Shown: positions 20,878 to 39,187 of the stretch, piece by piece
How positions within the stretch are numbered: position 1 is the stretch's first letter
How the letters are laid out: each line of letters begins with the position of its first letter
Origin: Bacteroidia bacterium
GTDB lineage: Bacteria; Bacteroidota; Bacteroidia; M30B66
Reading direction: 5' to 3'
NCBI GenBank assembly: GCA_965279035.1
Contig: OZ257142.1
Location: 3,680,001-3,744,000, forward strand
Length of the DNA: 64,000 nucleotides
The notes under the pieces: generated by a model
Databases searched by the model: none
Seen by the model: only the letters and a program-made list of their open reading frames with translations
Told to the model about the DNA's origin: nothing
Translations under genes and position numbers: made by a program

Positions 20878-21387
20878 ATGTATTACCATCCCGAAGAAGA
20901 AGAAGTGCTGCCTTTTTTCAAAGCAATTCGCTGGATTGCTTTAGGGAGTTTGTTATTTGCTTCATGTTTATTGGTCGATTTTTTCTTGCCCGAACAATGT
21001 AAAGAGGAGGTTGTCACAAAACGGGTTTATTTGAAAGAGAGCAATCGCTTTGGAGGCAATACATACGAATTGAAGTTGTTCACTCCAAGATTTGAAATCC
21101 AAGTCAATCCTGATTTATTTAGGGATGCACCTGAAAAAACTCCAATTAAAGTTTACCACTCTCCATTATTTAATACGATTAAAAAAGTAGGAGGTATAAA
21201 GTCTCCAGGAGGTGAAAAATTTTTACATGAAACAGAACTTCCCGTATATAGAGGCTTTGCTGCTTTTCCAATTGCTTTGTTGCTCCTTTCCTTCTTTACA
21301 CTTATTTATAAGAAAGACGAGGTTATTTCCTACGGAGCAGGAATTATTACTATAATTATTCTGGTTACTATTCTAATGATATTTTAA
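20878..21387 (+). CDS. Hypothetical membrane protein
   Basis: 169-aa ORF with one N-terminal and two C-terminal hydrophobic helices. Confidence 0.7.
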   Translation: MYYHPEEEEVLPFFKAIRWIALGSLLFASCLLVDFFLPEQCKEEVVTKRVYLKESNRFGGNTYELKLFTPRFEIQVNPDLFRDAPEKTPIKVYHSPLFNTIKKVGGIKSPGGEKFLHETELPVYRGFAAFPIALLLLSFFTLIYKKDEVISYGAGIITIIILVTILMIF

Positions 21388-21419
21388 AAATAAACCATGT
21401 GCTGGTTTACATTTGCAGC

Positions 21420-22031: not shown

Positions 22032-22206
22032 TGTGATTTTTTTTATTTTATCAACATCAGGCTCCTGTTCAGTTTCGTTCGAAATCTTCATTTAGAATGA
22101 TTCCAAATGTTAATAAGTGATTAAAATATATAGGGAATTTTTGTATGTTGCACGCTGTTGGGCAATTCTAAACAGAAACAATTCTTGACGCTAAGAATTT
22201 TCGCTG

Positions 22207-22953
22207 TTGATAATTTCACCCTCTAGACATAAATTCGTGTATTCAACCAACACTTTTATGGCAGAATTGCTGCGTAGACTTTTTATTATTTATACATATA
22301 AGTATAAATCAAATTTCTATTTCAATATCCCTCAAAACCGTAATAATTTAGGTCTTGATATCGTCAACAATTTGATTAAAAAAGTAATTCATCAGTTCTC
22401 TAACTGGCTTCGAGTTCATCGCATTTTTGAAAAGTCACTCTTTGTTTTTTATCCTGTATTACCTCTTAAAAAAAAGCAAATTGCCTTTACTCTGAGCATA
22501 CTGGCATTTACACTGAATGGTATAAGTCAGGATAATCATCCTCGTATTCAACGTAAAGAAGACTGGCCAAAATTCTGGATTGTAGGTGTTTCTGATGCTG
22601 GATTTCCGGTTCTAACAAATCAGTTTGACGAAAACAGCATGACCGAATACGGGAAACAAATTCTGAATTGGATCGATTCCCATCCTGAGCAATATGCTAA
22701 GTTAAGTCAAGACACGAATGCAATCGATGCGATCCGATATCGTGATGTGTATGCATTTAAGCCAGAGCAGAAAGCACAATTCAAAGAGATTAGTGCTCGA
22801 TTTCGATTAGCCTTAGAATTTCAGAAAAATCGATATTTCACTTCAAGTCCTAACCAAGAAGCGAAGAAACATGTGAAGCCTAAAACAAGGCCTGCAGTTT
22901 ATCTCATTTCTCAATACGACCTTCTTTACTGGAGAAAGCAAACCGGACTTTGA
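22207..22953 (+). CDS. Hypothetical protein translationally coupled to the giant adhesin (true start uncertain)
   Basis: TGA overlaps the TTG of the next gene (ttga, 22950-22953). Internal KKKQIAFTLSILAFTLNGISQ looks like a signal peptide. Confidence 0.5.
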   Translation: MIISPSRHKFVYSTNTFMAELLRRLFIIYTYKYKSNFYFNIPQNRNNLGLDIVNNLIKKVIHQFSNWLRVHRIFEKSLFVFYPVLPLKKKQIAFTLSILAFTLNGISQDNHPRIQRKEDWPKFWIVGVSDAGFPVLTNQFDENSMTEYGKQILNWIDSHPEQYAKLSQDTNAIDAIRYRDVYAFKPEQKAQFKEISARFRLALEFQKNRYFTSSPNQEAKKHVKPKTRPAVYLISQYDLLYWRKQTGL

Positions 22954-25900
22954 AAAACACTATCAAATACCTAGTATTCATGCTGATCTGGCTTTTCTTC
23001 CAAGAAGCCCAAGGTCAGACGTATACTATGGGAACAGGGAGCAACAGTAATTCTGTAACAACATGTAGTGGTACTTTTTACGACAATGGAGGTTCTGGTG
23101 CCAACTATGCAAATAATTGTAGTTCAACCTATACCTTTTGCAGCAATGTTCCCGGGCAATGCATCATGGTCAATTTCACGCAATTCAATGTGAGTGATTT
23201 TGATTTTTTTGGATTTCCATACGATTATTTAACTGTATATGATGGGCCAAGTACCGCTTCTCCCTATATGTTCGATATTAGTGGTGGTCCATTTCCTGCT
23301 CCATTTCCAGTTGCATCTTCATCAGGATGTTTAACATTTGAATTCACTTCTGATGCTTCAAATCGTTCTCCAGGATGGACTGGATTATTAACCTGTCAAC
23401 CTTGTCCAATTCCGGTTTCTCCTACCCAACAAGATTGTGATGGAGCTATCCCCATTTGCGAAGAGCAATATTATCAACCCTATGCCTATACAGGAAATAA
23501 TGGAACCGATATATTGCCTGCATCTTCTTGCTTATTAGATGGAGAATTAAATAATTCCTGGTATGTATTTACCGCTCAAACGAGTGGAAATCTATCGTTT
23601 GTCATTTCTCCCAATTTTAGCGACGACGATTACGATTGGGCGGTTTATGATATAACTAATGAAGGATGCGAAGGGATTACTGATGAATCAAGTCCAGAGA
23701 TAAGTTGTAATTTTTCTGCTGATGTTTTTGCATGGGCGGGGCAAACAGGAGCATACGGTGCGGCACCTTATTTAGGAACAGGTACAAGTACTGGTTCTGG
23801 AGGTGATCCATTTAATACCGATATCCCTGTAATTGCAGGCAATTCATACGTAATTGTTGTTAGTAATTACAGTTCTTCACAAGGAGGATATTATTTAGAT
23901 CTTTCGCCATCAACAGCCATACTTTTCGATAATACACCACCTTTAATTGCCGAAGTGGATGAAGTATCCTGTGGAGCTACTATCGTTGAAATTACTTTTT
24001 CAGAACCAACATTATGTAGTAGTATTCAAACAGGAGACTTCCAACTAAATGGTCCTGGTGGTCCTTATACAGTTACAGCAATCGATCTAGGATCATGCAC
24101 TGGTTCAGGTGTAGAATTTACACAATCGGCCGAATTAACTATAAGTCCAGCAATTACCCAAAGTGGAACCTATACACTTTGTTTAACGAGTGCTGCAGGT
24201 GGAATTAGCGATTTATGCGGAAATACAAGTACAAGCGGATGTGTTTCAGTTAGTACTTCGATAACAGTAACGGCCAATGCTGGTCCCGATAAAACAATCT
24301 GCTCAGCAGGTGCTGTAACAATAGGAGGAAGTCCAACAGCCAGCAATGGAACAGGACCATATACTTATGTTTGGTCACCATTAACAGGAATTGTATCAGG
24401 AAGTACAAGCGCCAATCCGAGTGTAAATCCTTCAATCACTACAACCTACACAGTTTTAGTTACAGACAATACAGGATGTTCTGCATCGGATGATGTGAAT
24501 GTTATTGTTTCAAATGCTGCTGCAACAAATATATCTTATACAGGCTCTCCGTTTTGTACAGCAGTTAGTACAGCTCAACTACCAACCATTTCTGGAACAA
24601 CAGGTGGGACATTTTCTGCAAGTCCATCAGGTTTAACAATCAATTCAAGTACAGGAGCAATTACCCCATCAACGAGTACAGCCAATACCTATACAATAAC
24701 TTATTCTGTTGCAGCAGCGGGGGCATGTCCGGCATTTTCGGTAACTACATCTGTTACCATTAATACTTCTGTTGCTACAAGTATATCCTATACAGGCGCA
24801 CCATTTTGCACCTCATTAGGAACAGCTCAATTACCTACAATTGTTGGGACAACTGGCGGAACATTTTCTTCAAGTCCTTCGGGTTTAACTATAAACTCAA
24901 GTACAGGAGCAATTACTCCATCAACAAGTTCAGCTAACGCATATACAATTACCTATACTGTACCTGCTTCTGGTGCCTGTCCATCGTATACAGTTACTAC
25001 TTCTGTTACAATCAATACAGCGGCATCTGCTAGCATTTCATATGCTGGCTCTCCGTATTGTACATCTGTTGTCACAGCTCAATTACCAACAATAACAGGC
25101 ACAACTGGCGGAACTTTTTCTTCAAGCCCATCTGGTTTATCTATAAATGCGAGTACTGGAGCAATCACACCATCTACAAGTACAGCTAATACTTACACAA
25201 TAACTTATACGATAGCAGCAGCTGGAGCATGTCCTGCATTTACAACTACGACCTCAGTAACAATTAATACTTCAACAACACCAACGTTTACAATTCCTAC
25301 AACATTATGTTCAGGAAATACCGCTCCCTTATTACCTGGAACATCAACAAATGGAATATCGGGAACTTGGAGTCCTTCAACAGTAAGTAATACTATTTCG
25401 GGAACCTATGTTTTTACCCCTTCATCGGGAACATGTGTCAATACATACAGCATCACAATTACTGTATTTGAAAGACCAGTAATTTATGCTCATGGAGTAG
25501 ATCCAACGTGTTCATCGCTTTGTGATGGATCAGCTACAGTAGATGTGGTTGGTGGAACAGGTTCTTACTCCTATTTGTGGAATACTACAGCTGCAACACA
25601 ATCTATTTCGGCATTATGTGCAGGAACCTATTCGGTAATTGTTACAGATGCCAATGGCTGTACATCAACTGCTTTTACTCCCGCTTCGGCTTGTTTCCAA
25701 ATTCAGGGAATCCTAGTTAATTCTTGTTCCTCAACGGAATGGAATGAGGAGATGGTATTTTTCCAAGTTGGTTCATCACCACTTAATACGAGTGCTTTAA
25801 CAGTCACATGGCCAACTTTAGCTGATAGTTGGAGAGGATTGTGTACGAATCCAACCTATATAGCAGCAGTAAATGCAACAATTACGGGTGGAGGAGTTGT

Positions 25901-28900
25901 TTTACCAATGCCTGGAACAGGAATATTACCTGCAAATGCTAACGTTGTTTTAGTTACTGAAAACGTTTTAAATGCACCTATTGCGGATTATTCCAATTTG
26001 AGCGGTCCACTATACATGATCTTTCAATGTTCGGGAAATACGCAAGGTCAATTTGTTAATTCAGGTGCTGGTACGTCCAATCCTCTCATTTTAAACTTCG
26101 GCTCAGGCTGTAGTGAATCAATTACTTACGCACCAAATTCACTGCCCAATTATAGCGGAAGTGGTGATGGTGGCTATGCACTTTATTCCTCCAATGGAAC
26201 AGCTACTTATTTAAACTATGGTTGTTCGATTCCTTATACTATTCAATCGGATGATATAACCTTAGTAGCACCTCCTCCTGTTCCAGTTGCTGTTACACCT
26301 GCTACCACTACCATTTGTTCTGGAGGAAATGTAAGTTTAACTGCATCTGGCGCCACTACATATACTTGGGCTCCATCAACCAATTTGTCGGCAACTACTG
26401 GAGCGACTGTAACTGCTAGTCCAACCGGAACAATTACATATACCGCTACAGGTACTTTAGCTGGATGTACTGGTACTGCAACAGCTATCGTTACAGTTGT
26501 AGCACCCGCAAATGCTGGATCAAATGGGCTAAAAGCTGTTTGTTCTAACGGAAGTGCTGTTGATCTTTTCAATTCACTCGGAGGAACACCTGCAACAGGA
26601 GGAACTTGGACCGGACCATCTTCTTTAGGAAACGCTTACCTTGGAACTTTCACTCCAGGAACAAGCTTAGCTGGAGTTTATACCTATACTGTAACAGGGA
26701 CTTCTCCATGTGCCAATGCAAGCGCTACTGTTACAGTTAGCCAAACTACAGAAGCAAATGCTACAATATCCTATCCTGGAGCACCTTATTGTAAAAGCAT
26801 TTCAACTGGACAAGTCCCAACCATTTCTGGCAGCACTGGCGGCACTTTTAGCTCAAGTCCTGCTGGTTTAACTTTGAATACCGTACTTGGAACAGTAACA
26901 CCTTCAAGTAGTACAGCTGGTACTTATACTGTAACATATACCATTGCTGCATCTGGTGCTTGTCCTGCATTTTCGACAATTGAAAGCTTGACCATTAATG
27001 CACTACCAGCTACACCTACGCTAACACCTAATCCACCTTGTGCCGGACAAGCCGTAACCTTTACTGCAGGAAACGGTTCTTGGTATGAATTTACTTTAAA
27101 CGGAACTCAAGTACTTGCTCCATCGGCTACGAATACATATTCAATCCCAATCCTTGTTTCTGGTGATCAAATTTGTGTAAACTCTTACCCAACTCCACCT
27201 TTTATTTTAGATGGAAATATCATTGAACCACAATGGGGAACAGCCTATGCTACTTCTGCTGGAGGTCCTGCTAGTAGTGGATTTGGGGCAGGAAATAATC
27301 TAGATGCGCTTTTCTTAAGTAATATGAGTGGCAATTTTTATGGAGCAATTGCCAGTTCTGTAGTAAACAACACAAACAATCGCGTTTTACTCTTTATAGA
27401 TTGTGAAGCGGGAGGGTATAATAGCCTTGCTGGTTGGACTGTTAGAACAAATTCACCTTATTATTCTGTTGAAAATTTAAGTAGTTCCATTTCTTTCGAT
27501 GCTGGTTTCAGCCCTGATTATGTATTAGCGATGAATCAGGCGACTGGGGATGCATTTTTCGATTTGTATCATATGTCGACCAATGTGAATAATTTCCTCG
27601 GACAAGCAAGCACATCGACCCAACTTGGATATGTGAGTAATACAAGTGTAGGAGATTATACCAAAGGGTTTGAATTTGCTTTTCCTTTATCAGCCATTGG
27701 AAATCCAACAGGAACAATGAAGCTATTTGCCATGATAGTAAATGATCCTGGCTTTGGAGTTCCAACCTTTGTAAGTAATCAATTTCTAACACACTGTGGA
27801 AGTGCTGAAAGTAATTATGGAAATGGTTTTATTGATTTTAATTCTGCTACTCCCAATCCTATAAATTATCAACTCAGTGCAGATTGCTTTTCGACTACAT
27901 GTGTAACTGCAGGTTCTCCTGTAACACCAACGTTTACAGCTGTTGCTCCAATATGTTCGGGAGCTAGTTTATCGGCTTTGCCAACTACTTCCAACAATGG
28001 TATTACTGGAACTTGGGCACCTGCATTGGATAATACAACAACAACACTTTACACATTCACGCCTTCGGCTGGACAATGTGCCACTTCAGCAACATTAACC
28101 ATCACCGTAAATCCGAATGTAACACCAACGTTCACAGCTATTGCACCTATTTGTTCGGGAGCTAGTTTATCGGCTTTGCCAACCACTTCGAACAATGGTA
28201 TCACCGGAACATGGGCACCGGCTCTTAGTAACACAACAACAACGCTTTATACATTCACGCCTGCTGCTGGGCAATGTGCAACGTCAGCAACATTAACCAT
28301 CACAGTCACACCGAATGTAACACCAACATTCACGGCTGTTGCTCCTATTTGTTCGGGAGGAAGTCTTTCGGCTTTGCCAACCACTTCCAACAATGGAATT
28401 ACCGGAACTTGGTCGCCTGCATTGGATAATACAACAACAACGCTTTACACATTCACGCCTTCGGCTGGACAATGTGCCACTTCAGCAACATTAACCATCA
28501 CCGTAAATCCGAATGTAACTCCAACGTTCACGGCTGTTTCTCCAATATGTTCGGGAGCTAGTTTATCTGCTTTGCCAACCACTTCCAACAATGGTATCAC
28601 CGGAACATGGACGCCAGCATTGGATAACACAACAACAACGCTTTACACATTCACGCCTGCTGCTGGACAATGTGCCACTTCAGCAACATTAACCATTACA
28701 GTAAATCCGAATGTAACACCAACATTCACCGCTGTTGCTCCGATTTGTTCGGGAGGAAGCCTATCGGCTTTGCCAACTACTTCCAACAATGGTATCACCG
28801 GAACTTGGGCACCTGCATTGGATAATACAACAACAACGCTATACACATTCACGCCTTCGGCTGGACAATGTGCCACTTCAGCAACATTAACCATCACAGT

Positions 28901-31900: not shown

Positions 31901-32936
31901 TTTATCGCCTTTGGGGCCATTTTGTCAATTTGATCCACAACCAATTTTATTAAATACTTCTGCTAATGGATTAAGTGGAACTTGGAATCCTTCAACAATA
32001 AGCACAAGTTCACTCGGGACATTTATATTTACTTTCACACCAGATCAAGATCAGTGTGGAACAATAGAAACACTTCAAGTTGTTGTTACAACTCCTTTTG
32101 GTGCAACTTTTTCATTTCCTACAACTTTTTGTGAGAATGATCCTTCTTTTATACTTCCTTTAATTTCTGACAATGGATTATCCGGAACTTGGGCAACTAG
32201 TTCCATTAATACATCACTAATTGGTGTTACTCCTTATAAATTTATTCCCAATCCAAGTAGTTGTGGATTTGCTGTTATAGTTGATGTAACCGTAAATCCA
32301 ATTTCAACTCCAACATTTTCATTTAACACAAGCATTTGTACAGGATCAAGTCCCGATGCACTTCCTTTAGTTTCTGATGAAGGAATACCGGGAACATGGT
32401 TACCAGCAACTATTAACAATACAACAAGCGGCAATTATACTTTTACTCCTGATGTCGGTCAATGTGCTGCACCTGTTGATGTTTTTGTTACTGTTGGTTC
32501 CGCTATTTTACCAACATTTAATGCTATCCCAGCATTCTGTTCGGGAACAATAGCACCAACTCTTCCAGCTATTTCTACCAATGGAATCACAGGAACTTGG
32601 ATTCCTTCAACAATTAGTAATACTTCATCTGGCACTTATACTTTCACACCCGATGCAGGTCAGTGTGCAACAGGTGCAAGTTTAAGTGTGAGTGTTACAG
32701 CATTAACAACGCCTATATTTTCAGCCATTCCAGCATTTTGTTCAGGTGCAACAGCACCATTGCTTCCAGCTACTTCTACCAATGGAATAACAGGAACTTG
32801 GTTACCAGCAACGATTAATAATACAACTAGTGGGACATACACATTTACTCCGAATTCGGGACAATGTGCCTCAACAACAACCTTAACAAGCACATTAAAC
32901 CCATTGCCAACAACTACACCTATTTACCACGATTAA
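22950..32936 (+). CDS. 3328-aa secreted Ig-repeat adhesin (protein A); no T9SS CTD, ends PTTTPIYHD
   Basis: Signal peptide ..AQG-Q; CUB-like domain (CSGTFYDNGG..DYLTVYDG..FTSD..GW); SprB-like repeat; 25 tandem 66/68-aa TPTF..IC..GITGTW..YTFTP..GQCA units. Confidence 0.9.
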   Translation: MKNTIKYLVFMLIWLFFQEAQGQTYTMGTGSNSNSVTTCSGTFYDNGGSGANYANNCSSTYTFCSNVPGQCIMVNFTQFNVSDFDFFGFPYDYLTVYDGPSTASPYMFDISGGPFPAPFPVASSSGCLTFEFTSDASNRSPGWTGLLTCQPCPIPVSPTQQDCDGAIPICEEQYYQPYAYTGNNGTDILPASSCLLDGELNNSWYVFTAQTSGNLSFVISPNFSDDDYDWAVYDITNEGCEGITDESSPEISCNFSADVFAWAGQTGAYGAAPYLGTGTSTGSGGDPFNTDIPVIAGNSYVIVVSNYSSSQGGYYLDLSPSTAILFDNTPPLIAEVDEVSCGATIVEITFSEPTLCSSIQTGDFQLNGPGGPYTVTAIDLGSCTGSGVEFTQSAELTISPAITQSGTYTLCLTSAAGGISDLCGNTSTSGCVSVSTSITVTANAGPDKTICSAGAVTIGGSPTASNGTGPYTYVWSPLTGIVSGSTSANPSVNPSITTTYTVLVTDNTGCSASDDVNVIVSNAAATNISYTGSPFCTAVSTAQLPTISGTTGGTFSASPSGLTINSSTGAITPSTSTANTYTITYSVAAAGACPAFSVTTSVTINTSVATSISYTGAPFCTSLGTAQLPTIVGTTGGTFSSSPSGLTINSSTGAITPSTSSANAYTITYTVPASGACPSYTVTTSVTINTAASASISYAGSPYCTSVVTAQLPTITGTTGGTFSSSPSGLSINASTGAITPSTSTANTYTITYTIAAAGACPAFTTTTSVTINTSTTPTFTIPTTLCSGNTAPLLPGTSTNGISGTWSPSTVSNTISGTYVFTPSSGTCVNTYSITITVFERPVIYAHGVDPTCSSLCDGSATVDVVGGTGSYSYLWNTTAATQSISALCAGTYSVIVTDANGCTSTAFTPASACFQIQGILVNSCSSTEWNEEMVFFQVGSSPLNTSALTVTWPTLADSWRGLCTNPTYIAAVNATITGGGVVLPMPGTGILPANANVVLVTENVLNAPIADYSNLSGPLYMIFQCSGNTQGQFVNSGAGTSNPLILNFGSGCSESITYAPNSLPNYSGSGDGGYALYSSNGTATYLNYGCSIPYTIQSDDITLVAPPPVPVAVTPATTTICSGGNVSLTASGATTYTWAPSTNLSATTGATVTASPTGTITYTATGTLAGCTGTATAIVTVVAPANAGSNGLKAVCSNGSAVDLFNSLGGTPATGGTWTGPSSLGNAYLGTFTPGTSLAGVYTYTVTGTSPCANASATVTVSQTTEANATISYPGAPYCKSISTGQVPTISGSTGGTFSSSPAGLTLNTVLGTVTPSSSTAGTYTVTYTIAASGACPAFSTIESLTINALPATPTLTPNPPCAGQAVTFTAGNGSWYEFTLNGTQVLAPSATNTYSIPILVSGDQICVNSYPTPPFILDGNIIEPQWGTAYATSAGGPASSGFGAGNNLDALFLSNMSGNFYGAIASSVVNNTNNRVLLFIDCEAGGYNSLAGWTVRTNSPYYSVENLSSSISFDAGFSPDYVLAMNQATGDAFFDLYHMSTNVNNFLGQASTSTQLGYVSNTSVGDYTKGFEFAFPLSAIGNPTGTMKLFAMIVNDPGFGVPTFVSNQFLTHCGSAESNYGNGFIDFNSATPNPINYQLSADCFSTTCVTAGSPVTPTFTAVAPICSGASLSALPTTSNNGITGTWAPALDNTTTTLYTFTPSAGQCATSATLTITVNPNVTPTFTAIAPICSGASLSALPTTSNNGITGTWAPALSNTTTTLYTFTPAAGQCATSATLTITVTPNVTPTFTAVAPICSGGSLSALPTTSNNGITGTWSPALDNTTTTLYTFTPSAGQCATSATLTITVNPNVTPTFTAVSPICSGASLSALPTTSNNGITGTWTPALDNTTTTLYTFTPAAGQCATSATLTITVNPNVTPTFTAVAPICSGGSLSALPTTSNNGITGTWAPALDNTTTTLYTFTPSAGQCATSATLTITVNPNVTPTFTAVAPICSGGSLSALPTTSNNGITGTWAPALDNTTTTLYTFTPSAGQCATSATSTITVNPNVTPTFTQVAAICSGGSLSALPTTSNNGITGTWAPSLDNTTTTVYTFTPSAGQCATTATMTIIVTPNLTPTFTAIAPICSGASLSALPTTSNNGITGTWTPALDNTTTTLYTFTPSASQCATTTTLTITVNPNVTPTFTAVAPICSGGSLSALPTTSNNGITGTWSPALDNTTTTLYTFTPSAGQCATSATLTITVNPNVTPTFTAVSPICSGASLSALPTTSNNGITGTWTPALDNTTTTLYTFTPAAGQCATSATLTITVNPNVTPTFTAVAPICSGGSLSALPTTSNNGITGTWAPALDNTTTTLYTFTPSAGQCATSATLTITVNPNVTPTFTAVAPICSGGSLSALPTTSNNGITGTWAPALDNTTTTLYTFTPTAGQCATTATLTITVNPNVLPTFTQVAAICSGGSLSALPTTSNNGITGTWAPALDNTTTTVYTFTPSAGQCATTATMTIIVTPNLTPTFTAIAPICSGASLSALPTTSNNGITGTWTPALDNTTTTLYTFTPSASQCATSATLTITVNPNVTPTFTAVAPICSGGSLSALPTTSNNGITGTWTPALDNTTTTLYTFTPAAGQCATTATLTITVNIPTTPTFTLTSTICNGDAVSALPTTSNNGITGIWTPALNNTITTLYTFTPSAGQCASVFTFTLNVIQPTTPIFTQVPAICTGGALAALPTISNNSYSGSWSPAIDNTTTTTYTFTPFAGQCAATASMTITVNPNITPTFAPIPDICLGDVAPVLPTTSTNSITGTWFPITVSTSISNTYTFTASAGQCATTATLTTTIISPTIPLFNAVAPVCSGGTAPILPLTSTNGITGTWLPASVSNTVSGTYTFTPSAGQCASATTITVTVATPNVPSFNTIPPICSGDLAPSLPSSSLNSIVGTWLPALVNNTTSGTYTFTPNAGQCATTTTTSITVNPIVTTVLSPLGPFCQFDPQPILLNTSANGLSGTWNPSTISTSSLGTFIFTFTPDQDQCGTIETLQVVVTTPFGATFSFPTTFCENDPSFILPLISDNGLSGTWATSSINTSLIGVTPYKFIPNPSSCGFAVIVDVTVNPISTPTFSFNTSICTGSSPDALPLVSDEGIPGTWLPATINNTTSGNYTFTPDVGQCAAPVDVFVTVGSAILPTFNAIPAFCSGTIAPTLPAISTNGITGTWIPSTISNTSSGTYTFTPDAGQCATGASLSVSVTALTTPIFSAIPAFCSGATAPLLPATSTNGITGTWLPATINNTTSGTYTFTPNSGQCASTTTLTSTLNPLPTTTPIYHD
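27921..32903 (+). repeat. Intragenic tandem array: 17 x 198 bp then 8 x ~204 bp
   Basis: 15 near-identical 198-bp units (27921-30890), 2 diverged units, then 8 diverged 68-aa units. Confidence 0.92.
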
Positions 32937-32946
32937 CAACCAAACT

Positions 32947-35310
32947 ATGAGAAAAATTCGACTCTTGTTGCTAATGATCTTCGGGCTTCTTGCCGGGCAG
33001 AAGATGATAGCACAAACCGATGCAACAGACCCTCAGGTCATATGTATCGGAGAAACCCGTCCCTATCGGGTTGACTATCTCGAAAATGCTGGAGCAGGAA
33101 CAACAGGTTCAACCTATACCTGGGCAGTTCTAACACCTGGCTTTTTGGGAACCATTGCAACCAACCAAGGTCCGGGAGCAAGCAGCAATGCTATCTCCAT
33201 AAACTGGGGCGCAACACCCGCGGGATTGTATGTCTTGCAAGTGATTGAGACCAATGGTGGTTGTCCGGGTACTCCCATGACATTGAATATTCAACTCACA
33301 CCTTTAATTACTCCAACATTCAATGCCATTGGACCATTGTGTCAGAATTCAGTGGCTCCAACATTGCCAACTAGTTCGACCAATATTCCTGCAATTACAG
33401 GAACATGGGATGCGGCTATAAATACTTCCAGTGTTGGAACTGTAGTTTATACATTTACCCCAGATCCTGGACAATGTGCTACTACCACTACATTATCTGT
33501 TACGATAACTAATCAGATTACACCAACATTTACTCAGATTGGACCATTGTGTCAGAATTCAGTAGCACCAGTATTACCAACCAGTTCGACCAATATTCCA
33601 GCCATCACTGGAACTTGGGATGCTGCAATTAGCACAGCATCGGCAGGTACTACGGTATATACTTTCACGCCAGCGAGTGGACAATGTGCAGGAACAGCCA
33701 CTATGAGTATTGATGTTAACCCGCAGGTAACACCAACATTTACTCAAATTGGGCCACTGTGTCAGAATTCGGTAGCTCCAGTATTACCAACTAGTTCGAA
33801 TAATATTCCGGCGATAACAGGAACTTGGAATGCTGCGATAAGCACAACTTCTGCAGGAACGGTTGTTTACACATTCACACCAACCGCAGGACAATGTGCT
33901 ACTACTACCACAATGAGTGTTACTGTTGATCCTCAAGTAACACCAACGTTTACTCAGCTTGGACCACTTTGCCAAAATTCAGTTGCACCTGTATTGCCAA
34001 CAAGTTCGACCAATATTCCAGCAATAACGGGAACTTGGGATGCCGTATTAAGTACTGCTTCGGCAGGAACAGTTGTGTATACTTTCACTCCAACAGCTGG
34101 ACAATGTGCCACTACACAAACAATGAGTGTAGTCGTAAACCCTCAAATAACTCCAACATTTACTCAGCTTGGACCATTGTGTCAGAATTCAGTAGCGCCA
34201 GTATTACCAACTAGTTCAACCAATATTCCAGCAATAACGGGTACATGGGATGCCGTATTAAGTACTGCATCAGCTGGAACAGTTGTCTATACATTCACTC
34301 CAACTGCTGGACAATGTGCAATAACTGCTACCATGAGTGTAACAGTTGACCCTTTGATAACACCGACTTTTGCTGCTATTGGACCATTGTGTCAGAATTC
34401 GGTTGCTCCAACATTGCCAACAAGTTCGACCAATGTTCCAGCAATTACTGGTACTTGGAATGCTGTATTAAGCACAGCATCGGCAGGTACTGTTGTTTAT
34501 ACGTTCACACCAGATCCTGGACAATGTGCAACAACTGCAACCTTGAGTGTAGACGTAAATCCTACACCTACAATTACCATCGTAGGCGGACCAACCTGTT
34601 CGGTAGATTTACTCACTTGGTCGGTTGATGTAACTGTATCGGCTGGAACATTGACTAGCACTGCAGGTACAGTAGTAAATACATTAGGAAATGCTTGGAC
34701 AATCAGTGGAATTCCAGCTGCAACAAACATTACATTAAGTTCAACTGCTTTAGGCTGTCCAGGAACCTTGGCTATTACTGCTCCGAATTGCAACTGTCCA
34801 ACCGTTGCTCAACCAGTAGGAACAGGAGCCGCATATTGTATTGGATCTTTACCAGTGCCAGCCATTACAGCAACAGTATTGGCTGGACAAACACTTAATT
34901 GGTATGATGCAGCTACTGGAGGAACACTTGTGGGAACTGGTTCTCCTTTCAACCCAAGCGGTCCAGGAACCTATTATGCTGAAGCAGTTGATAATTCTAC
35001 ATTGTGTGTGAGTCAGCGAACACCTGTTACGTTAACCGAAAATGCATTGCCTATTGTATCAGCATTCGGTGGAGCTACACTTTGTCAAGGAAGTTCAACA
35101 ACACTTTCGGCAACGGGAGCTGTAAGCTATACATGGAACCCAACTACTGGATTATCACCAATAACTGGAACACCTGTAACTGCAACTCCTCCAGTAGGAA
35201 CAACCGTTTATACTGTTACTGGAACTGATGGAAATAACTGTCAAAACACAGATACAGTTACTGTAATTGTAACTCCAACACCAACAACTTCACCTATTTA
35301 TCACGACTAA
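32947..35310 (+). CDS. 787-aa secreted Ig-repeat protein (protein B); N-terminal PKD-like domain, ends PTTSPIYHD, no T9SS CTD
   Basis: Own signal peptide (MRKIRLLLL..IA-Q), six 70-aa repeats, Ig-like domains. Confidence 0.9.
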   Translation: MRKIRLLLLMIFGLLAGQKMIAQTDATDPQVICIGETRPYRVDYLENAGAGTTGSTYTWAVLTPGFLGTIATNQGPGASSNAISINWGATPAGLYVLQVIETNGGCPGTPMTLNIQLTPLITPTFNAIGPLCQNSVAPTLPTSSTNIPAITGTWDAAINTSSVGTVVYTFTPDPGQCATTTTLSVTITNQITPTFTQIGPLCQNSVAPVLPTSSTNIPAITGTWDAAISTASAGTTVYTFTPASGQCAGTATMSIDVNPQVTPTFTQIGPLCQNSVAPVLPTSSNNIPAITGTWNAAISTTSAGTVVYTFTPTAGQCATTTTMSVTVDPQVTPTFTQLGPLCQNSVAPVLPTSSTNIPAITGTWDAVLSTASAGTVVYTFTPTAGQCATTQTMSVVVNPQITPTFTQLGPLCQNSVAPVLPTSSTNIPAITGTWDAVLSTASAGTVVYTFTPTAGQCAITATMSVTVDPLITPTFAAIGPLCQNSVAPTLPTSSTNVPAITGTWNAVLSTASAGTVVYTFTPDPGQCATTATLSVDVNPTPTITIVGGPTCSVDLLTWSVDVTVSAGTLTSTAGTVVNTLGNAWTISGIPAATNITLSSTALGCPGTLAITAPNCNCPTVAQPVGTGAAYCIGSLPVPAITATVLAGQTLNWYDAATGGTLVGTGSPFNPSGPGTYYAEAVDNSTLCVSQRTPVTLTENALPIVSAFGGATLCQGSSTTLSATGAVSYTWNPTTGLSPITGTPVTATPPVGTTVYTVTGTDGNNCQNTDTVTVIVTPTPTTSPIYHD
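33307..34566 (+). repeat. Six intragenic 210-bp (70-aa) tandem repeats
   Basis: TPTF..(I/L)GPLCQNSVAP.LPTSS.N.PAITGTW occurs six times. Confidence 0.9.
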
Positions 35311-35327
35311 GCAGTGAATCTGTAGGA

Positions 35328-38129
35328 ATGAAACGTATTCTAACATATCTACTTCTGCTTACTGCAGGAATATTGAGCCTGACTCCTTCATGGGGTCAGG
35401 CCGATACCCTGTGCGTATCCAATCCGGTAGGCACTTATTATGTGCAAGGCTGGGCAGGAAGTACATTCAGTTGGAATACACAAGGCGATGGAGTGATACA
35501 AAGCGGTCAAGGAAATGATACTGTTGTAGTACAATGGAATACACTTTCGGGGACGTTTCAACTTGAAGTAATTGAAACCAGTTTGGAAGGCTGTGTTGGT
35601 CCTCCTCGATTGATGGATATTGTTATTCTCCCTTCATCGACAAGTACCGTAAATGCAGCAATATGTTCAAGTTCTACCTATACTCTACCTGATGGGTCGA
35701 CGGTTTCAAGCACGGGAACTTATCCTGTTACATTAACAGCAAATAATGGTTGTGATTCAATCATTACAACCCATTTAACAGTTCAATCGGTATTAACAAC
35801 TTCGGTGAATGCTTCCATTTGTTTGGGGGATGATTATGTCCTTCCAGATGGAACACATGTTAATACGAATGGCTCCTACCCAGTTACATTGAATAGTTCT
35901 GGTGGTTGCGATTCTATCATTACTACATTTTTGAGTGTAAATCAACCGATAAACACTGCCTTAAATGCAAGCACATGCTTTGGAACTGCCTATACTTTAC
36001 CAGATGGATCTCAAGTGAATTCTGCCGGAGTTTATCCAGTAACTATTCAAGGAAGTACCGGTTGTGACTCAACCATTACTACAACACTATCTATTCATCC
36101 AACGGAACAAACTGTTTTAGATATCAATATTTGTTCGGGGACATCGTATTTATTACCCGACGGACAAATCGTATCAACAACAGGCTCATATAATACAGTT
36201 TTGCAAACCACATTGGGATGCGATTCATTGGTTATAGTTAACCTCAACGTTGCTCCAACTCCAACTGTAAGTATAAGTTCTTCGGCAGGAAATTCCATCT
36301 GTCAAGGATCGTCTATCACCTTAACAGCCAGTGGAGCAAATTCATATACTTGGCTTCCAACTACAGGATTATCAGCTTCGAATGTTGCTGTTGTTGATGC
36401 AGCGCCTGATACAACTACAACCTACACCGTTGTTGGAACTTTAGGAAATTGCTCTTCGGTTGCATCGTTTATGCTAACAGTCAATGCAAGTCCAATTGTA
36501 GCGATAACACCCAATAACCCAACAATTTGCTTAGGAGATTCAGTTAGTTTAACTGCTTCTGGAGCCAATACCTATCAATGGTCTCCAGCAACTTGGTTGA
36601 GTTCTAGCACTGTGGCTTCTGTTATGGCTAGCCCTCCAGTTGGATCAACTCAATTCACAGTTATCGGTTCAAACGGAAATTGTTCTTCAACGCAAACGGT
36701 TACTGTCCTTGTTACTTCTAGCATTCAATTAAGCCTTGTTGCCCAATATCCGGTAATTTGTACTGGCTCTTCTACCTTAATAATAGCCAGTGGAGCGGCA
36801 TCGTATTCTTGGCAAAATGATCCAAGCCTTTCGACACTTTCTGGTGATAGTGTTTATGCTTCACCCGGAATACAAACAAGCTATTTTGTAACTGGCGTAT
36901 TGGGCAATTGTACTGCGATCGATTCAATCTCGATTGATGTTCAAGCTTATCCTGTTATCTCTTTAACTTCAACACCCGATTCCACTTGCGCGGGAACTCC
37001 TATTCTTCTCAGTGCACTAGGTGCTGAATCATATTCTTGGTCTCCATCGAATGGTTTATCACAAACGTTTGGAGATACTGTTATTGCTACTGTATTTGAC
37101 GATTTTACATATTATGTAAATGGAACAACAGGAAACTGCACTACGCTAGATTCCGTTTTAGTAAACATTATCCCATCTCCTCACCTTATTTTACAACCTG
37201 AATCCACTGTACTTTGTGCTGGTGATACTGTTCAACTTTCGGCAAGCGGAGCAGATGCTTATTCTTGGAATCCATCAGATAGTATTGCTTGTCCAACCTG
37301 TCCAACTATTCTGGTTTCACCTTCCTCAACCACCAATTACGAAATTATTGGTACACGAACAGGATGTGCCGATACGAGTTCCGTTTTAGTGCAAGTAATT
37401 GAACGTCCAATTCCTCTCATCACGGGTGATACTGCTATGTGTGCAAATGGTGAGATTACCTTAGAAGCATCAGGAGGTTCAAGCTATTTGTGGAGTACAG
37501 GAGATTCGATTAGTACAATAACGGTTCATCCAGAAATAACTACCGTGTATTCGGTTTTAGTAAACGAAGGTCTTTGTCCCGATTCTGCCGAACACCTCAT
37601 TGTAGTTTTTCCTGCACCTGATGTTCATGCAAGTGAAGACACTACAATACGACAAGGTGGTTCTGCGAATTTAGCTGCTGTAGGTGGCTATCAATATTAT
37701 TGGTCGCCTTCGCTATTTTTAAGTTGCGACAATTGCCCAAATCCAATTGCAAGTCCTGAAGCAACTACAACCTATTGTGTTACCGGTACAAATTTTTATG
37801 GTTGTGAAGCTTCCGATTGTGTGGAAGTGAAAGTGGAAATTATTTGTGACGATTTCTTTATTCCGAATGTGTTTTCACCAACCAAAGGAGGTGATCCTGA
37901 AAATGATTGTTTCCGATTGTATGGAACAAATTGTATTACAGAATTGAAGTTTCGGATTTTTAATCGATGGGGTGAATTAGTATTTGAAACGAACGATAAA
38001 TCCGATTGTTGGGATGGAACCTTTAAAGGTCAAGATCAAAATTCAGGTGTATTTGTATATTACCTTGAAGCCAAGTTGATTAATGATGAAAAAATTGAGA
38101 AGCAGGGTAACATCACCTTGCTCCGTTAA
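35328..38129 (+). CDS. 933-aa Ig-repeat protein with type-B T9SS CTD (protein C)
   Basis: Signal peptide; N-terminal PKD-like domain; GCDS repeats; C-terminal FIPNVFSP..D..ND.F..IFNRWGELVF..WDG..GVFVY..GNITLLR. Confidence 0.93.
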   Translation: MKRILTYLLLLTAGILSLTPSWGQADTLCVSNPVGTYYVQGWAGSTFSWNTQGDGVIQSGQGNDTVVVQWNTLSGTFQLEVIETSLEGCVGPPRLMDIVILPSSTSTVNAAICSSSTYTLPDGSTVSSTGTYPVTLTANNGCDSIITTHLTVQSVLTTSVNASICLGDDYVLPDGTHVNTNGSYPVTLNSSGGCDSIITTFLSVNQPINTALNASTCFGTAYTLPDGSQVNSAGVYPVTIQGSTGCDSTITTTLSIHPTEQTVLDINICSGTSYLLPDGQIVSTTGSYNTVLQTTLGCDSLVIVNLNVAPTPTVSISSSAGNSICQGSSITLTASGANSYTWLPTTGLSASNVAVVDAAPDTTTTYTVVGTLGNCSSVASFMLTVNASPIVAITPNNPTICLGDSVSLTASGANTYQWSPATWLSSSTVASVMASPPVGSTQFTVIGSNGNCSSTQTVTVLVTSSIQLSLVAQYPVICTGSSTLIIASGAASYSWQNDPSLSTLSGDSVYASPGIQTSYFVTGVLGNCTAIDSISIDVQAYPVISLTSTPDSTCAGTPILLSALGAESYSWSPSNGLSQTFGDTVIATVFDDFTYYVNGTTGNCTTLDSVLVNIIPSPHLILQPESTVLCAGDTVQLSASGADAYSWNPSDSIACPTCPTILVSPSSTTNYEIIGTRTGCADTSSVLVQVIERPIPLITGDTAMCANGEITLEASGGSSYLWSTGDSISTITVHPEITTVYSVLVNEGLCPDSAEHLIVVFPAPDVHASEDTTIRQGGSANLAAVGGYQYYWSPSLFLSCDNCPNPIASPEATTTYCVTGTNFYGCEASDCVEVKVEIICDDFFIPNVFSPTKGGDPENDCFRLYGTNCITELKFRIFNRWGELVFETNDKSDCWDGTFKGQDQNSGVFVYYLEAKLINDEKIEKQGNITLLR

Positions 38130-38140
38130 AATCTGATCGT

Positions 38141-39187
38141 ATGAAGAAACTCTTTTCTACATTATGGATTATCGGATTGATTGGAATCTCCAAACTTTCG
38201 GGGCAGGATATTCACTTTTCTCAATTCACCATGGCGCCTTTAACACAAAACCCGGCTATGGCTGGAGCTTTAAATAATGCCGAAGCGTATTTGAATTATA
38301 AAAGTCAATGGAAAGCTGTAACAAATCCCTATAAAACCTATGCTGTTTCAGCAATGGCTCGTTTGGGTAAACCTAGAAAAGACAAAAGCTTTTGGGCTGT
38401 TGGTTTAAACTTTTTTAATGATCAAAGTGGAGATGGTAAATTAACTCAAACAACCGGAACGTTCACTCTTGCTTATCAAATTCATTTAACACGCTATCAC
38501 AAGCTAGGATTGGGTTTGCAAGCTGGTTTTGGACAAGTTAAAATCAATACGGGAGATTTCCAGTGGGGAAGTCAATATGTTTCGGGAAATGGATTTGATC
38601 CTTCCATGGCAACAGGTGAAAATATTCAAAATCCAACGTTCGGATATTTCGATTTTGGAAGTGGTCTTGTATGGTCGTTCAATAATACGGCAGGTTTAGT
38701 GAAGACAAGTAACAATGTGTTTAATAAAGGATGTTTTGGAATATCTGTTTATCACATCAATCAACCGAACTTTTCTTTCATCAATACAGGTGATAAACTC
38801 CACATGAAATACGTTGCTCACGGACAATATCTATTTAGTGTAAATGGTTCCAAAGTGGCGATAAATCCGGGATTCATGTTTTATAGCCAAGGAACAGCAA
38901 AGGAACTTTTCTTTGGATCCATGGTGCGATACAACATACTTCCTGAATCAAAATACTCTGGTTTTTACAAAGGTGCAGGAGCCTATTTAGGAGCTTATAT
39001 GCGTGCTGGTGATGCGATAGTTATTTCTACAATGCTGGAGCTTTCGCAGTTTGCTGTTGGCTTTAGCTACGATATTAATACATCTTCACTTCGCCCTGCC
39101 AGCAATGGACGTGGAGGATTTGAAATTTCCGTTCGCATGACCGGTCAAGGTCCTTTTGCGAATAAAGTTCGAAGCTTTAGAAGATAA
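38141..39187 (+). CDS. PorP/SprF family T9SS outer-membrane protein
   Basis: QDIHFSQF..PL..NPA.AG, Y..QW, HINQPN.SF, GFSYD..S.L..GGFEIS; directly follows a type-B CTD gene. Confidence 0.93.
   Translation: MKKLFSTLWIIGLIGISKLSGQDIHFSQFTMAPLTQNPAMAGALNNAEAYLNYKSQWKAVTNPYKTYAVSAMARLGKPRKDKSFWAVGLNFFNDQSGDGKLTQTTGTFTLAYQIHLTRYHKLGLGLQAGFGQVKINTGDFQWGSQYVSGNGFDPSMATGENIQNPTFGYFDFGSGLVWSFNNTAGLVKTSNNVFNKGCFGISVYHINQPNFSFINTGDKLHMKYVAHGQYLFSVNGSKVAINPGFMFYSQGTAKELFFGSMVRYNILPESKYSGFYKGAGAYLGAYMRAGDAIVISTMLELSQFAVGFSYDINTSSLRPASNGRGGFEISVRMTGQGPFANKVRSFRR

What the first reader, a model, noticed from the sequence alone, without database searches (positions are those of the whole stretch)
22950..39187. 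Candidate donor-strand-linked tip-shaft-anchor filament exported with a type-B T9SS/PorP module
Seen in sequence: three adjacent genes in different frames, each with its own signal peptide, followed by porP/sprF. A (3328 aa) ends PLPTTTPIYHD* (32901-32936) and B (787 aa) ends PTPTTSPIYHD*. The tails differ at synonymous sites (tac/tat, gat/gac), so the peptide is what is conserved. Neither protein has a T9SS CTD. Each tail sits where the first strand of the next Ig repeat would begin (compare ..TVNP-NVTPTFTAVAPIC). B (~33013-33303) and C (~35397-35633) start with a homologous domain (C..Y.V..G..GST[YF].W..G.I...QG..W..G.[YF].L.VIET..GC.G.P) whose first Cys comes 6-11 residues after the predicted cleavage site, as if the preceding strand is missing. 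A has a tail but no such domain, B has both, and C has the domain plus a type-B CTD. Established: type-B CTD cargo such as SprB needs a cognate SprF/PorP, and donor-strand complementation builds chaperone-usher and type V pili. Inference: the tail completes the N-domain of the next subunit, giving A(tip)-B(n)-C(anchor). B could self-polymerise, and A and B could be exported by riding on C. I do not know of a description of this system.
Basis: partly seen in the sequence, partly recalled or inferred. Interest (0 to 1): 0.93.

Follow-up and report, generated by a model that had tools for sequence, protein, structure and literature searches.

The report
Split T9SS adhesin joined by strand-swapping
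Four neighbouring genes appear to encode one long surface fibre made as three separate proteins, each plugging a short conserved tail into the unfinished first domain of the next, so that two proteins with no export signal of their own could reach the cell surface attached to a third that has one.

Summary
A (22950-32936) and B (32947-35310) end in ..T[TS]PIYHD*. B and C (35328-38129) start, just after their signal peptides, with homologous PKD-like domains. Only C has a type-B T9SS CTD, and a PorP/SprF gene follows. The set of tail-only gene(s), N-domain+tail gene, N-domain+type-B-CTD gene and PorP recurs in 4 genome loci, 11 metagenome loci and 7 further genome loci. A wider relative has the same three protein types in the order B-C-A. 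In multi-repeat relatives, the junction before each internal copy of this domain reads VNPxPxTSxIxG-xxx-[VI]C. That is the tail motif, and I sits exactly 7 residues before the Cys in 68 of 125 junctions. So the tail is the linker plus first strand of the domain type whose remainder opens B and C. A co-fold of the B tail domain with the B N-domain scored ipSAE 0.82 (best control 0.00), with the tail lying against strands 38-45 and 97-113. The best reading is a GhpA/SprB-like T9SS adhesin split into A-(B)n-C by strand complementation in trans. Co-export of A and B on C, and polymerisation of B, are inferred and were not tested. I found no published description.

The parts
22950..32936 (+). Gene A. 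Tail-only 'tip' subunit, 3328 aa: signal peptide, CUB-like N-terminal domain, about 30 Ig-like repeats, no T9SS CTD, C-terminal tail.
   Evidence: Pfam CUB 8.6e-07 and no CTD. NCBIfam gives nothing. 15.8 tandem copies of a 198-bp unit at 27920-31048.
32901..32933 (+). Tail of A, PLPTTTPIYHD (stop codon at 32934-32936). Proposed donor strand.
   Evidence: Same motif as internal domain junctions. A-type tails are conserved in the related loci.
32947..35310 (+). Gene B. Shaft or adaptor subunit, 787 aa: signal peptide, acceptor N-domain, 6 Ig-like repeats and other Ig-like domains, Ig_7 domain, tail. No CTD.
   Evidence: Ten orthologues found, nine of them aligned with B.
33013..33309 (+). B N-domain (residues 23-121). 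PKD-like domain lacking the first strand; proposed acceptor.
   Evidence: Pfam PKD_5 0.0016, below the cut-off. Invariant C33, Y40, V42, D43, Y57, W59, V99, E101, C106 in 32 sequences. Interface residues 23-28, 30, 38-45, 97, 99-113 in the co-fold.
35275..35307 (+). Tail of B, PTPTTSPIYHD (stop codon at 35308-35310). Proposed donor strand.
   Evidence: T781, I784 and H786 are invariant in 32 sequences. Residues 776-787 form the interface in the co-fold. It is the most conserved segment of B.
35328..38129 (+). Gene C. Anchor subunit, 933 aa: signal peptide, acceptor N-domain, Ig-like domains, type-B T9SS CTD.
35397..35633 (+). C N-domain (residues 24-102). PKD-like domain with its first Cys at mature residue 6; proposed acceptor for the B tail.
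   Evidence: Pfam PKD_6 4.5e-04, matching profile positions 13-67 of 82. Homologous to the B N-domain. Conserved in 10 orthologues.
37860..38126 (+). Type-B T9SS C-terminal domain of C (residues 845-933).
   Evidence: PF13585 CHU_C 2.8e-16. TIGR04131 2.8e-11.
38141..39187 (+). Gene D. PorP/SprF-family outer-membrane protein; presumed cognate carrier and anchor of C.
   Evidence: PF11751 1.5e-42. TIGR03519 4.4e-57.

Best explanation
A-B-C-D encodes a GhpA/SprB-like T9SS surface adhesin made as three polypeptides. These are re-joined head to tail, without covalent bonds, by beta-strand complementation in trans.

The last roughly 11 residues of A and of B (..P.P.T[TS].I[YF]H[DN]) are the linker and first strand of a PKD-like (PKD_5/PKD_6) domain. 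The rest of that domain sits at the mature N-terminus of the next protein, B or C. The tail lies between strand 38-45 and strands 97-113 of the acceptor. Its invariant Ile is buried against Y40, V42, L97, V99 and L113, and its invariant Thr lies next to D43 and E101.

This would give A (variable tip, tail only), then B (acceptor plus tail; one or more copies), then C (acceptor plus type-B CTD). C is exported by the T9SS and held on the surface by its PorP/SprF partner D. A and B have no CTD and most likely cross the outer membrane attached to C.

Shown: the anatomy, its conservation, the motif identity with internal domain junctions, and a controlled co-fold. Inferred: physical binding, where assembly takes place, co-export, and the number of B copies.
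For: 1. Anatomy.

2. Conserved module.
- Genome contigs: 4 of 80 loci fetched with the B alignment carry tail ORFs, always as an adjacent tail-only then N-domain+tail pair. These are followed by N-domain+type-B-like C-terminus and PorP where the contig goes on (L001 and L004 complete; L002 and L003 cut).
- Metagenome contigs: 11 of 11 loci have a tail ORF directly upstream of a B-type N-domain ORF. 9 of those 11 B ORFs end in the tail (L084 is cut; L091's B ORF stops without one). 7 go on to C with a CTD-like end and then PorP. L081-L083 are near-identical, as are L088 and L089.
- Sampled genomes: the B N-domain profile hits 13 of 400 genomes sampled from one class. Seven regions were fetched. 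All 7 have tail-only gene(s) and then N-domain+tail; 6 of 7 continue with C and a PorP-like gene (L111 is cut).
- Pfam confirms CHU_C and PorP_SprF in L004 and L109.

3. Same three types in another gene order. In 10 loci of a wider relative, a roughly 210-aa N-domain+tail gene is followed by a roughly 355-aa N-domain gene in 10 of 10 (CHU_C checked by Pfam only in L137). A tail-only gene comes next in 9 of 10.

4. Tail equals first strand. In 18 multi-repeat relatives, 125 internal junctions have the consensus [VI]-N-P-x-P-x-T-S-A-I-T-G-x-x-x-[VI]-C. 68 of 125 carry T[STG].I.G; in 67 of those the I is exactly 7 residues before the Cys, and 8 in the other one. The N-terminal copies match Pfam PKD_6 only from profile position 11-13, whereas an internal copy matches from position 5.

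5. Co-fold. B residues 23-121 with B residues 698-787, using a 32-row alignment: ipSAE 0.80, 0.84 and 0.82 (median 0.82). The best of 3 controls scored 0.00. The tool's mark was reached by 58 of 80 solved complexes and 2 of 110 mismatched pairs, and these counts hold only roughly because my own alignment was used. The runs agree in at least 98% of contacts, and partner pLDDT is at least 91. The interface on the partner is residues 713-714 and 776-787.

6. Interface residues are the conserved ones. Y40, V42, D43, V99, E101, T781, I784 and H786 are invariant in 32 sequences. The tail is the most conserved segment (mean majority fraction 0.82, against 0.57 for the middle, which is only 58% occupied).

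7. Covariation. Residue 41 is R/Q/K together with an aromatic residue after the tail Ile in 27 of 28 proteins, against 13 of 48 for other residues at 41. This covers 76 of 157 proteins examined; Fisher p 1.3e-09, not corrected for relatedness.

8. In the AF2 monomer of a 199-aa member the tail is not a strand, so there is no complementation in cis.
Against: - No experiment of any kind supports binding.
- The co-fold may only re-create the contiguous domain that the model knows from solved tandem repeats: the family profile hits GhpA, 9flp, at 4e-150. It is therefore not independent of the homology argument, and the tool itself says a pass does not show binding.
- AF2 folds the N-domain with pLDDT 93-96 without any tail. 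An open groove is not demonstrated.
- I know of no precedent for CTD-less proteins passing the T9SS attached to a cargo, and none turned up.
- In the B-C-A variant no PorP gene is adjacent.
- The covariation count is confounded by phylogeny.
- A and B tails differ systematically (TT.IY against TS.IF). This fits either pair specificity or drift, and it leaves the number of B copies open.
Confidence: 0.62

Rival explanations
1. Fixed 1:1:1 split adhesin. The strands complement as above, but each tail is specific for one acceptor (A tail to B N-domain, B tail to C N-domain). B is then a single adaptor and not a polymerising shaft.
For: In the 18 loci listed, 14 of 19 A tails carry T at the second tail position and all 18 B tails carry S. 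B-type and C-type N-domains differ at contact positions 41 and 43: R/Q-V-D in B against H/Y-V-x in C. There is one gene of each type per module, in a tight operon with gaps of 8-22 nt.
Against: The B tail with the B N-domain co-folds at 0.82, though the tool warns that cousins of a true partner also pass. In the window both tails end IYHD. Minimal B proteins of about 200 aa look pilin-like. Several modules have two tail-only genes (L086, L110, L112).
Confidence: 0.3
2. The tail is a vestige of gene fission. A giant adhesin gene was cut at domain borders, signal peptides arose, and the leftover first strand has no role. A and B act on their own in the periplasm or are exported some other way.
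For: The tail is homologous to the start of an internal domain, as fission would leave behind.
Against: The tail is the most conserved segment of B, with T, I and H invariant at 30-60% overall identity. It is kept through synonymous change. It follows unrelated last domains. It is kept in two gene orders. It never appears without an acceptor gene next to it in the loci examined.
Confidence: 0.06
3. The tail is a short sorting or processing signal read by something other than the N-domain, for instance the PorP-like protein, a T9SS component or a C-terminal protease. A and B would then each be exported independently.
For: It is strictly C-terminal and conserved. A and B need some route across the outer membrane and have no CTD.
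Against: This does not explain why the motif equals the first strand of the same domain family, why acceptors lacking that strand always accompany it, or the covariation with N-domain residue 41. No PorP gene is adjacent in the B-C-A variant.
Confidence: 0.07

Closest known systems
GhpA grappling hook of Aureispira and SprB of Flavobacterium johnsoniae (giant Ig-repeat type-B T9SS adhesins with PorP/SprF-family carriers)
   Same: Same repeat family: the profile of the small tail proteins hits GhpA chain 9flp_A at 4e-150 in 30 stretches, and GhpA fragments appear in the fold search. Also shared are a Sec signal peptide, a C-terminal T9SS sorting domain and a PorP homologue downstream. GhpA details come from passages of bioRxiv 10.1101/2024.01.29.577165. 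The SprB-SprF carrier pairing comes from passages of PMC12635249.
   Different: GhpA (5898 aa) and SprB are single polypeptides. Here the fibre is encoded as three (sometimes four) secreted proteins, and only the last has a CTD. The joints fall inside a PKD-like domain. D has no Cys in its C-terminal tail, unlike the twin-cysteine tail of SprF described in PMC12635249 (passages).
Type V pili of Bacteroidota (FimA/Mfa1)
   Same: Tip-shaft-anchor logic, and a C-terminal strand of one subunit filling a groove in the next. The mechanism is recalled; titles and abstract openings of PMC4789730 and PMC13655056 were seen in the listing.
   Different: No lipoprotein signal: the proteins here have type-I-like signal peptides followed by Q. 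No FimA/Mfa Pfam family. No sign of a protease-removed N-terminal strand. The acceptor is a PKD-like domain, and the anchor is a type-B CTD with PorP.
Chaperone-usher pili (donor-strand complementation and exchange)
   Same: An incomplete Ig-like fold completed by a strand from the neighbouring subunit (recalled).
   Different: In chaperone-usher pili the donor strand is an N-terminal extension that replaces the missing last strand. Here a C-terminal tail replaces the missing first strand. The module has no chaperone or usher gene.
Type-B CTD cargo anchored by PorP-like proteins (P. gingivalis PG1035; F. johnsoniae cognate CTD/shuttle pairs)
   Same: C plus D fit this pattern. PMC9143113: title and start of abstract, seen in the listing. 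PMC12618676: passages.
   Different: Neither source, in the parts I saw, mentions extra CTD-less subunits coupled to the cargo.
Surrogate light chain (VpreB completed by a strand of lambda5)
   Same: An Ig domain that lacks one strand, which a second polypeptide supplies in trans (recalled; start of the abstract of PMC12859133 seen in the listing).
   Different: It is eukaryotic, the missing strand is the last one, and there is no chain formation or secretion coupling.

Membership tests
T9SS type-B cargo with cognate PorP/SprF carrier (tested on C and D) | C-terminal type-B sorting domain (CHU_C PF13585 / TIGR04131) | tested here: met
   C residues 845-931: PF13585 2.8e-16, 59.9 bits against cut-off 27. 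TIGR04131 43.4 bits against cut-off 35.
T9SS type-B cargo with cognate PorP/SprF carrier (tested on C and D) | Adjacent PorP/SprF-family outer-membrane protein gene | tested here: met
   D: PF11751 1.5e-42; TIGR03519 193.8 bits against cut-off 90.55. D starts 11 nt after the stop codon of C.
T9SS type-B cargo with cognate PorP/SprF carrier (tested on C and D) | Secretion and surface anchoring depend on the T9SS and on the carrier | not testable with these tools
   This needs genetics. No whole genome is held for the window, so even the core T9SS genes could not be checked. A type-A CTD protein lies at 14055-20426.
T9SS cargo (tested on A and B) | A type-A or type-B C-terminal sorting domain | tested here: not met
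   No CTD model hits A or B in Pfam or NCBIfam, even at E<=10 on the last 150 residues.
Pfam PKD-like domains PKD_5 / PKD_6 (N-domains of B and C) | Match above the gathering score | tested here: inconclusive
   Window B: PKD_5 18.8 bits against 25. Window C: PKD_6 20.9 bits against 25. Orthologous and wider N-domains pass: 27.1, 28.7 and 29.3 bits; 38.3 and 27.0 bits. All N-terminal copies start at profile position 7-13, so the beginning of the profile is missing.
Type V pili (FimA/Mfa1) | Lipoprotein signal peptide and FimA/Mfa fold family | tested here: not met
   No Cys at the predicted cleavage sites. No FimA/Mfa Pfam hit.
Type V pili (FimA/Mfa1) | C-terminal donor strand inserted into the next subunit | tested here: inconclusive
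   An analogous contact is predicted (ipSAE 0.82, best control 0.00), but in a different fold and by prediction only.
Chaperone-usher pili | Periplasmic PapD-like chaperone and outer-membrane usher in the cluster | tested here: not met
   The module has four genes, and none has such a domain. The flanking ORFs at 20878-22953 have no such hit.
Donor-strand-complemented fibres in general | Subunit with an incomplete Ig-like domain plus a complementary terminal strand on the neighbour | tested here: met
   At the level of sequence and prediction only. The tail motif equals the internal first strand (68 of 125 junctions). The N-domains start after it. The co-fold supports it.
Donor-strand-complemented fibres in general | Stable physical polymer or complex | not testable with these tools
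   This needs biochemistry or imaging.

The most novel reading that the evidence does not exclude
This is a new class of bacterial surface fibre and a new mode of type IX secretion. Subunits without any CTD are linked in the periplasm, tail into N-domain, to form a train behind one CTD-bearing anchor, and are pulled through the SprA translocon as a pre-assembled chain. B acts as a polymerising, pilin-like shaft of variable copy number, and interchangeable tip proteins (two tail-only genes in some modules) give plug-in adhesin variation. Minimal pilin-like members of about 200 aa would make it widespread in Bacteroidota.
Probability: 0.3. Interest if true: 0.93.

Novelty: new variant of a known kind. 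Interest (0 to 1): 0.84.

Why it matters
In the T9SS papers I saw, substrates are described as carrying a C-terminal sorting domain. If CTD-less proteins are exported by non-covalent coupling to a CTD-bearing partner, T9SS secretomes predicted by CTD searches would be incomplete, and the translocon would have to pass multi-protein chains.

The module would also be a donor-strand-type assembly system with its own geometry (a C-terminal strand replacing the first strand of a PKD-like domain). It would show how giant adhesins can be split into exchangeable tip, shaft and anchor cassettes.

The connector pair, an 11-residue tail and a domain of about 100 residues, is small and conserved, so peptide binding, structure and deletions can test it directly. 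If the binding is strong, it might also be usable as a protein-joining tag.

Tried and rejected
- Whole genome of the window: none is held. T9SS core genes and other modules in this organism could not be checked.
- The first homologous-protein search was swamped by generic Ig_7 proteins. Only 10 of the 120 listed hits were true B orthologues.
- The genome-contig scan used one generic pattern, so 76 of its 80 loci are unrelated Ig-repeat proteins. They served as a background for the tail count.
- The genome search with the C-like protein P0183 matched mostly through its CTD and middle domain and gave nothing on N-domains. It was dropped.
- The genome search with the profile of the small proteins hit 123 of 400 genomes, but most hits are internal repeats of big proteins. 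That number is not a prevalence of the module. Only the roughly full-length small hits were followed up: 10 regions were fetched, chosen from the top of the list.
- NCBIfam and Pfam give no name to the small tail proteins.
- Fold search of the AF2 model gave only generic tandem-Ig matches and GhpA fragments.
- RNA evidence: no RNA holder was listed.
- The second structure prediction, the two remaining homologous-protein searches and the protein-atlas search were not used.
- Considered and rejected: frameshift or read-through fusion of A-B-C, because each gene has its own signal peptide and there are stop codons and gaps of 10-17 nt between them.
- Considered and rejected: an assembly artefact splitting one gene, because the same split recurs in more than 20 independent contigs.
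- Considered and rejected: complementation of B in cis, because A has no N-domain and the tail is not a strand in the AF2 monomer.
- Literature searches that found no description of such a system. Papers of subscription journals and all supplementary files were not visible and could hold relevant data. One example is surface or secreted proteomes listing CTD-less T9SS-dependent proteins.

Full report
**What is in the window.**
Four co-directional genes lie at 22950-39187.
- A, 3328 aa. It has a signal-peptide-like start, a CUB-like domain (Pfam 8.6e-07) and about 30 Ig-like repeats, including 15.8 near-identical tandem copies of a 198-bp unit. It ends PLPTTTPIYHD*.
- B, 787 aa. It starts 10 nt after the stop codon of A. 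It has its own signal peptide, an N-terminal PKD-like domain, six 70-aa repeats, further Ig-like domains and an Ig_7 domain. It ends PTPTTSPIYHD*.
- C, 933 aa. It starts 17 nt after B. It has a signal peptide, a homologous N-domain, Ig_7-type domains and a type-B T9SS CTD (CHU_C 2.8e-16; TIGR04131 2.8e-11).
- D, a PorP/SprF-family protein (1.5e-42; 4.4e-57).

Neither A nor B matches any CTD model, even at E<=10 on the last 150 residues. The two tails differ at synonymous positions. The B and C N-domains are related: BLASTP E 2e-07 and profile-profile probability 98.85%. If cleavage falls before the Gln that follows each hydrophobic stretch, the first Cys is mature residue 11 in B and 6 in C. 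That placement rests on my reading plus the recalled 'Q-rule' for Bacteroidota signal peptidase I substrates; no call tested it. The only slip is that A and C share a reading frame.

**The tail and the module are conserved.**
- B orthologues. A search with the last 98 residues of B listed 120 proteins. Ten of them (751-837 aa) are true B orthologues. All ten have a signal peptide and the same N-domain, none has a CTD Pfam family, and all end in ..T[ST].IFHD. In the alignment of nine sequences (B and eight of these orthologues), the N-domain and the tail carry runs of invariant residues.
- Genome contigs. Only four of 80 fetched loci hold ORFs ending in [IVLM][FYW]H[DNE]. In each of the four these are an adjacent pair: a tail-only protein, then an N-domain+tail protein. 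Next come an N-domain protein with a type-B-like C-terminus and a PorP-like gene where the contig continues. The other 76 loci, rich in Ig_7 T9SS proteins, have none.
- Metagenome contigs. Using the N-domain alone as query gave 11 loci. All 11 have a tail ORF directly upstream of the B-type N-domain ORF. Nine of the B ORFs end in the tail (one is cut by the contig end; L091's stops without a tail). Seven continue to C and PorP. Three of the loci are near-identical to each other, and so are two others.
- Sampled genomes. The N-domain profile hits 13 of 400 genomes sampled from one class. All seven regions I fetched show the module, six of them complete. Pfam confirms CHU_C and PorP_SprF in two of these relatives.
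- Sizes vary widely: A 324-3328 aa, B 392-953 aa, C 331-2850 aa. The ends do not vary. In 32 B-like sequences the tail is the most conserved segment (mean majority fraction 0.82) and the N-domain is fully occupied (0.66). The middle is only 58% occupied (0.57).
- Three modules have two tail-only genes, one of about 1200-1500 aa and one of about 330 aa (L086, L110, L112).

**A wider family.**
The N-domain profile found 304 representative proteins at E<=0.001 and 136 at E<=1e-10. I examined 157 proteins: the top 150 plus seven of the B-family sequences. Of these, 86 end in a tail-like T[STG].[IVL] followed by 2-4 residues, 43 in the strict I[FYW]H[DNE] form, and 13 in a type-B-CTD-like end. Most carry the domain directly after a signal peptide. 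Many are only about 200 aa: signal peptide, N-domain, one Ig-like domain and tail (alignment of 24). Neither Pfam nor NCBIfam names these small proteins.

In ten loci of this wider group the order is B-like (about 210 aa), then C-like (about 355 aa; CHU_C 1.1e-13 in the one I checked), then a tail-only protein (413-931 aa) in nine of ten. No PorP gene is adjacent, and a response-regulator-like gene lies upstream in the one locus checked (L137). The same three protein types therefore travel together in two different gene orders.

**What the tail is.**
Eighteen of the representative proteins carry many internal copies of the same PKD-like domain. At 125 internal junctions the consensus is [VI]-N-P-x-P-x-T-S-A-I-T-G-x-x-x-[VI]-C. 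Sixty-eight of the 125 carry T[STG].I.G; in 67 of those the Ile sits exactly seven residues before the conserved Cys, and eight in the other one. The tails read V-N-P-x-P-x-T-S-P-I-[FY]-H-[DN]-stop.

The tail is thus homologous to the linker plus first strand of the very domain type whose remainder forms the N-domains of B and C. Those N-domains begin just after where that strand would be. In agreement, the N-terminal copies match Pfam PKD_6 only from profile position 11-13 of 82, while an internal copy matches from position 5. In effect a PKD-like domain is split between two polypeptides, with a stop codon, a short gap and a signal peptide in between.

**Does the tail dock?**
I co-folded B residues 23-121 with B residues 698-787 (last Ig_7 domain plus tail), each taken from a 32-row alignment.
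- Score: ipSAE 0.80, 0.84 and 0.82 (median 0.82). The best of three controls scored 0.00.
- Calibration: the tool's mark was reached by 58 of 80 solved complexes and 2 of 110 mismatched pairs. These counts hold only roughly because my own alignment was used.
- Consistency: the runs agree in at least 98% of contacts, and partner pLDDT is at least 91.
- Interface on the partner: apart from residues 713-714, it is exactly residues 776-787.
- Interface on the acceptor: residues 23-28, 30, 38-45, 52, 55, 57, 97, 99-109 and 111-113.
- Key contacts: I784 touches Y40, R41, V42, L97, V99 and 111-113. Y785 touches 40-42. H786 touches 30, 40 and 113. T781 touches 42, 43, 99, 101 and 111.
- Geometry: as the tail index rises, the index on strand 38-45 falls and the index on 99-113 rises. 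This is what a strand lying between those two elements would give.
- Conservation: the contacting residues are the invariant ones (C33, Y40, V42, D43, V99, E101; T781, I784, H786).

Across 76 proteins that have both features, residue 41 is R/Q/K together with an aromatic residue after the tail Ile in 27 of 28, against 13 of 48 otherwise (Fisher p 1.3e-09; relatedness not corrected).

An AF2 model of a 199-aa member (pLDDT 82.7) gives a confident N-domain of seven strands and a tail that is not a strand, so there is no self-complementation.

Caveats: the family's repeats are solved in GhpA (profile hit 4e-150), so the co-fold may simply rebuild a contiguous domain from memory. The N-domain also folds confidently without the tail. 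The tool itself says a pass supports binding but does not show it.

**Most likely mechanism.**
- Shown: the gene anatomy, its conservation, the identity of the tail with an internal first strand, and the predicted docking.
- Inferred: in the periplasm, or at the translocon, the tail of A completes the N-domain of B and the tail of B completes that of C (and perhaps of another B). This gives a linear A-(B)n-C chain of Ig-like domains.
- C is a standard type-B cargo. According to the literature, such cargo stays bound to its own PorP/SprF-family carrier (PMC9143113, title and start of abstract seen in the listing; PMC12618676 and PMC12635249, passages). The translocon is described as about 70 Å wide and able to pass folded substrates (passage of the GhpA preprint).
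- A and B have Sec signals but no CTD. Leaving with C is the simplest route. A head-to-tail chain led by the C-terminal CTD of C has the right topology for threading.
- The number of B copies is open. The B tail/B N-domain co-fold passes, but cousins of a true partner also pass. A tails (mostly TT.IYHD) differ consistently from B tails (TS.IFH[DN]), which hints at pair specificity.
- D has no Cys in its C-terminal tail, unlike SprF's twin-cysteine tail that links it to the gliding track (passages). This suggests a static fibre rather than a motile one.

**Comparison with known systems.**
- By homology the module belongs with GhpA/SprB-type giant Ig-repeat adhesins that carry a type-B CTD and a PorP-family partner. 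Those are single polypeptides.
- By mechanism it resembles donor-strand-complemented fibres (chaperone-usher pili, type V pili, TasA, archaeal threads). It shares no components with them. The donor is a C-terminal strand replacing the first strand of a PKD-like domain. There is no chaperone, usher, lipoprotein signal or protease-processing signature.
- Five literature searches found no paper linking T9SS cargo with strand complementation or hitchhiking. Subscription-only papers and supplements were not visible.
- I therefore file it as a new variant of type-B T9SS adhesin systems. A bolder reading, a new fibre class and a new export mode, is not excluded.

**Verdict.**
- Observation: confirmed.
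- Interpretation: supported in its core (tail into N-domain). Export and polymerisation are untested.
- Confidence: about 0.6 for the overall mechanism, higher (about 0.75) for the tail/N-domain contact alone.
- Interest: high.

Noticed in passing
window 14055-20426 (- strand): A 2123-aa protein with a type-A T9SS sorting domain (Por_Secre_tail, 2.8e-06, residues 2047-2121). The organism therefore very likely has a T9SS.
   Followed up: partly
window 27920-31048: 15.8 tandem copies of a 198-bp (66-aa) Ig-like repeat in A at 84% matches, with strongly negative GC skew (-0.21 to -0.23) over 28-32 kb. This looks like a recently expanded repeat array. The close relative L082 has an A of 2390 aa against 3328 aa here.
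   Followed up: partly
L086 8599-9573; L110 8876-9883; L112 10184-11188 (- strand): A second, short tail-only gene (about 324-335 aa, no Pfam hit) lies between the long tail-only gene and B in three modules. It may be an alternative tip.
   Followed up: partly
L135-L144 (for example L137 8631-13169): A wider relative of the module with gene order B-C-A. No PorP gene is adjacent. Upstream lie a roughly 475-aa gene with no Pfam hit (checked in L137; a similar-sized ORF is seen in seven of the other nine loci) and, checked only in L137, a response-regulator-like gene (PF00072, 7.6e-07, just below the cut-off). The tails read ..VVTPSIQHN and ..KPVTG.IQ...
   Followed up: partly
window 38141-39187 (D), C-terminus: D ends ..GQGPFANKVRSFRR with no cysteine. 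SprF's periplasmic tail carries a twin-cysteine motif that is disulfide-linked to GldK (passages of PMC12635249). This suggests D is a static anchor and not a track-coupled carrier.
   Followed up: no
L091 1197-2021: This B-like ORF is only 274 aa and stops without a tail, 38 nt before the contig end. The upstream tail is the variant ..TGLIFHE. It may be a truncated or diverged module.
   Followed up: no
window 20878-22953: Three small ORFs upstream of A (169, 210 and 248 aa) have no significant Pfam family. The 210-aa ORF is conserved upstream in the close relatives L082 and L083, but not in the more distant modules, so they are probably not part of the module.
   Followed up: partly
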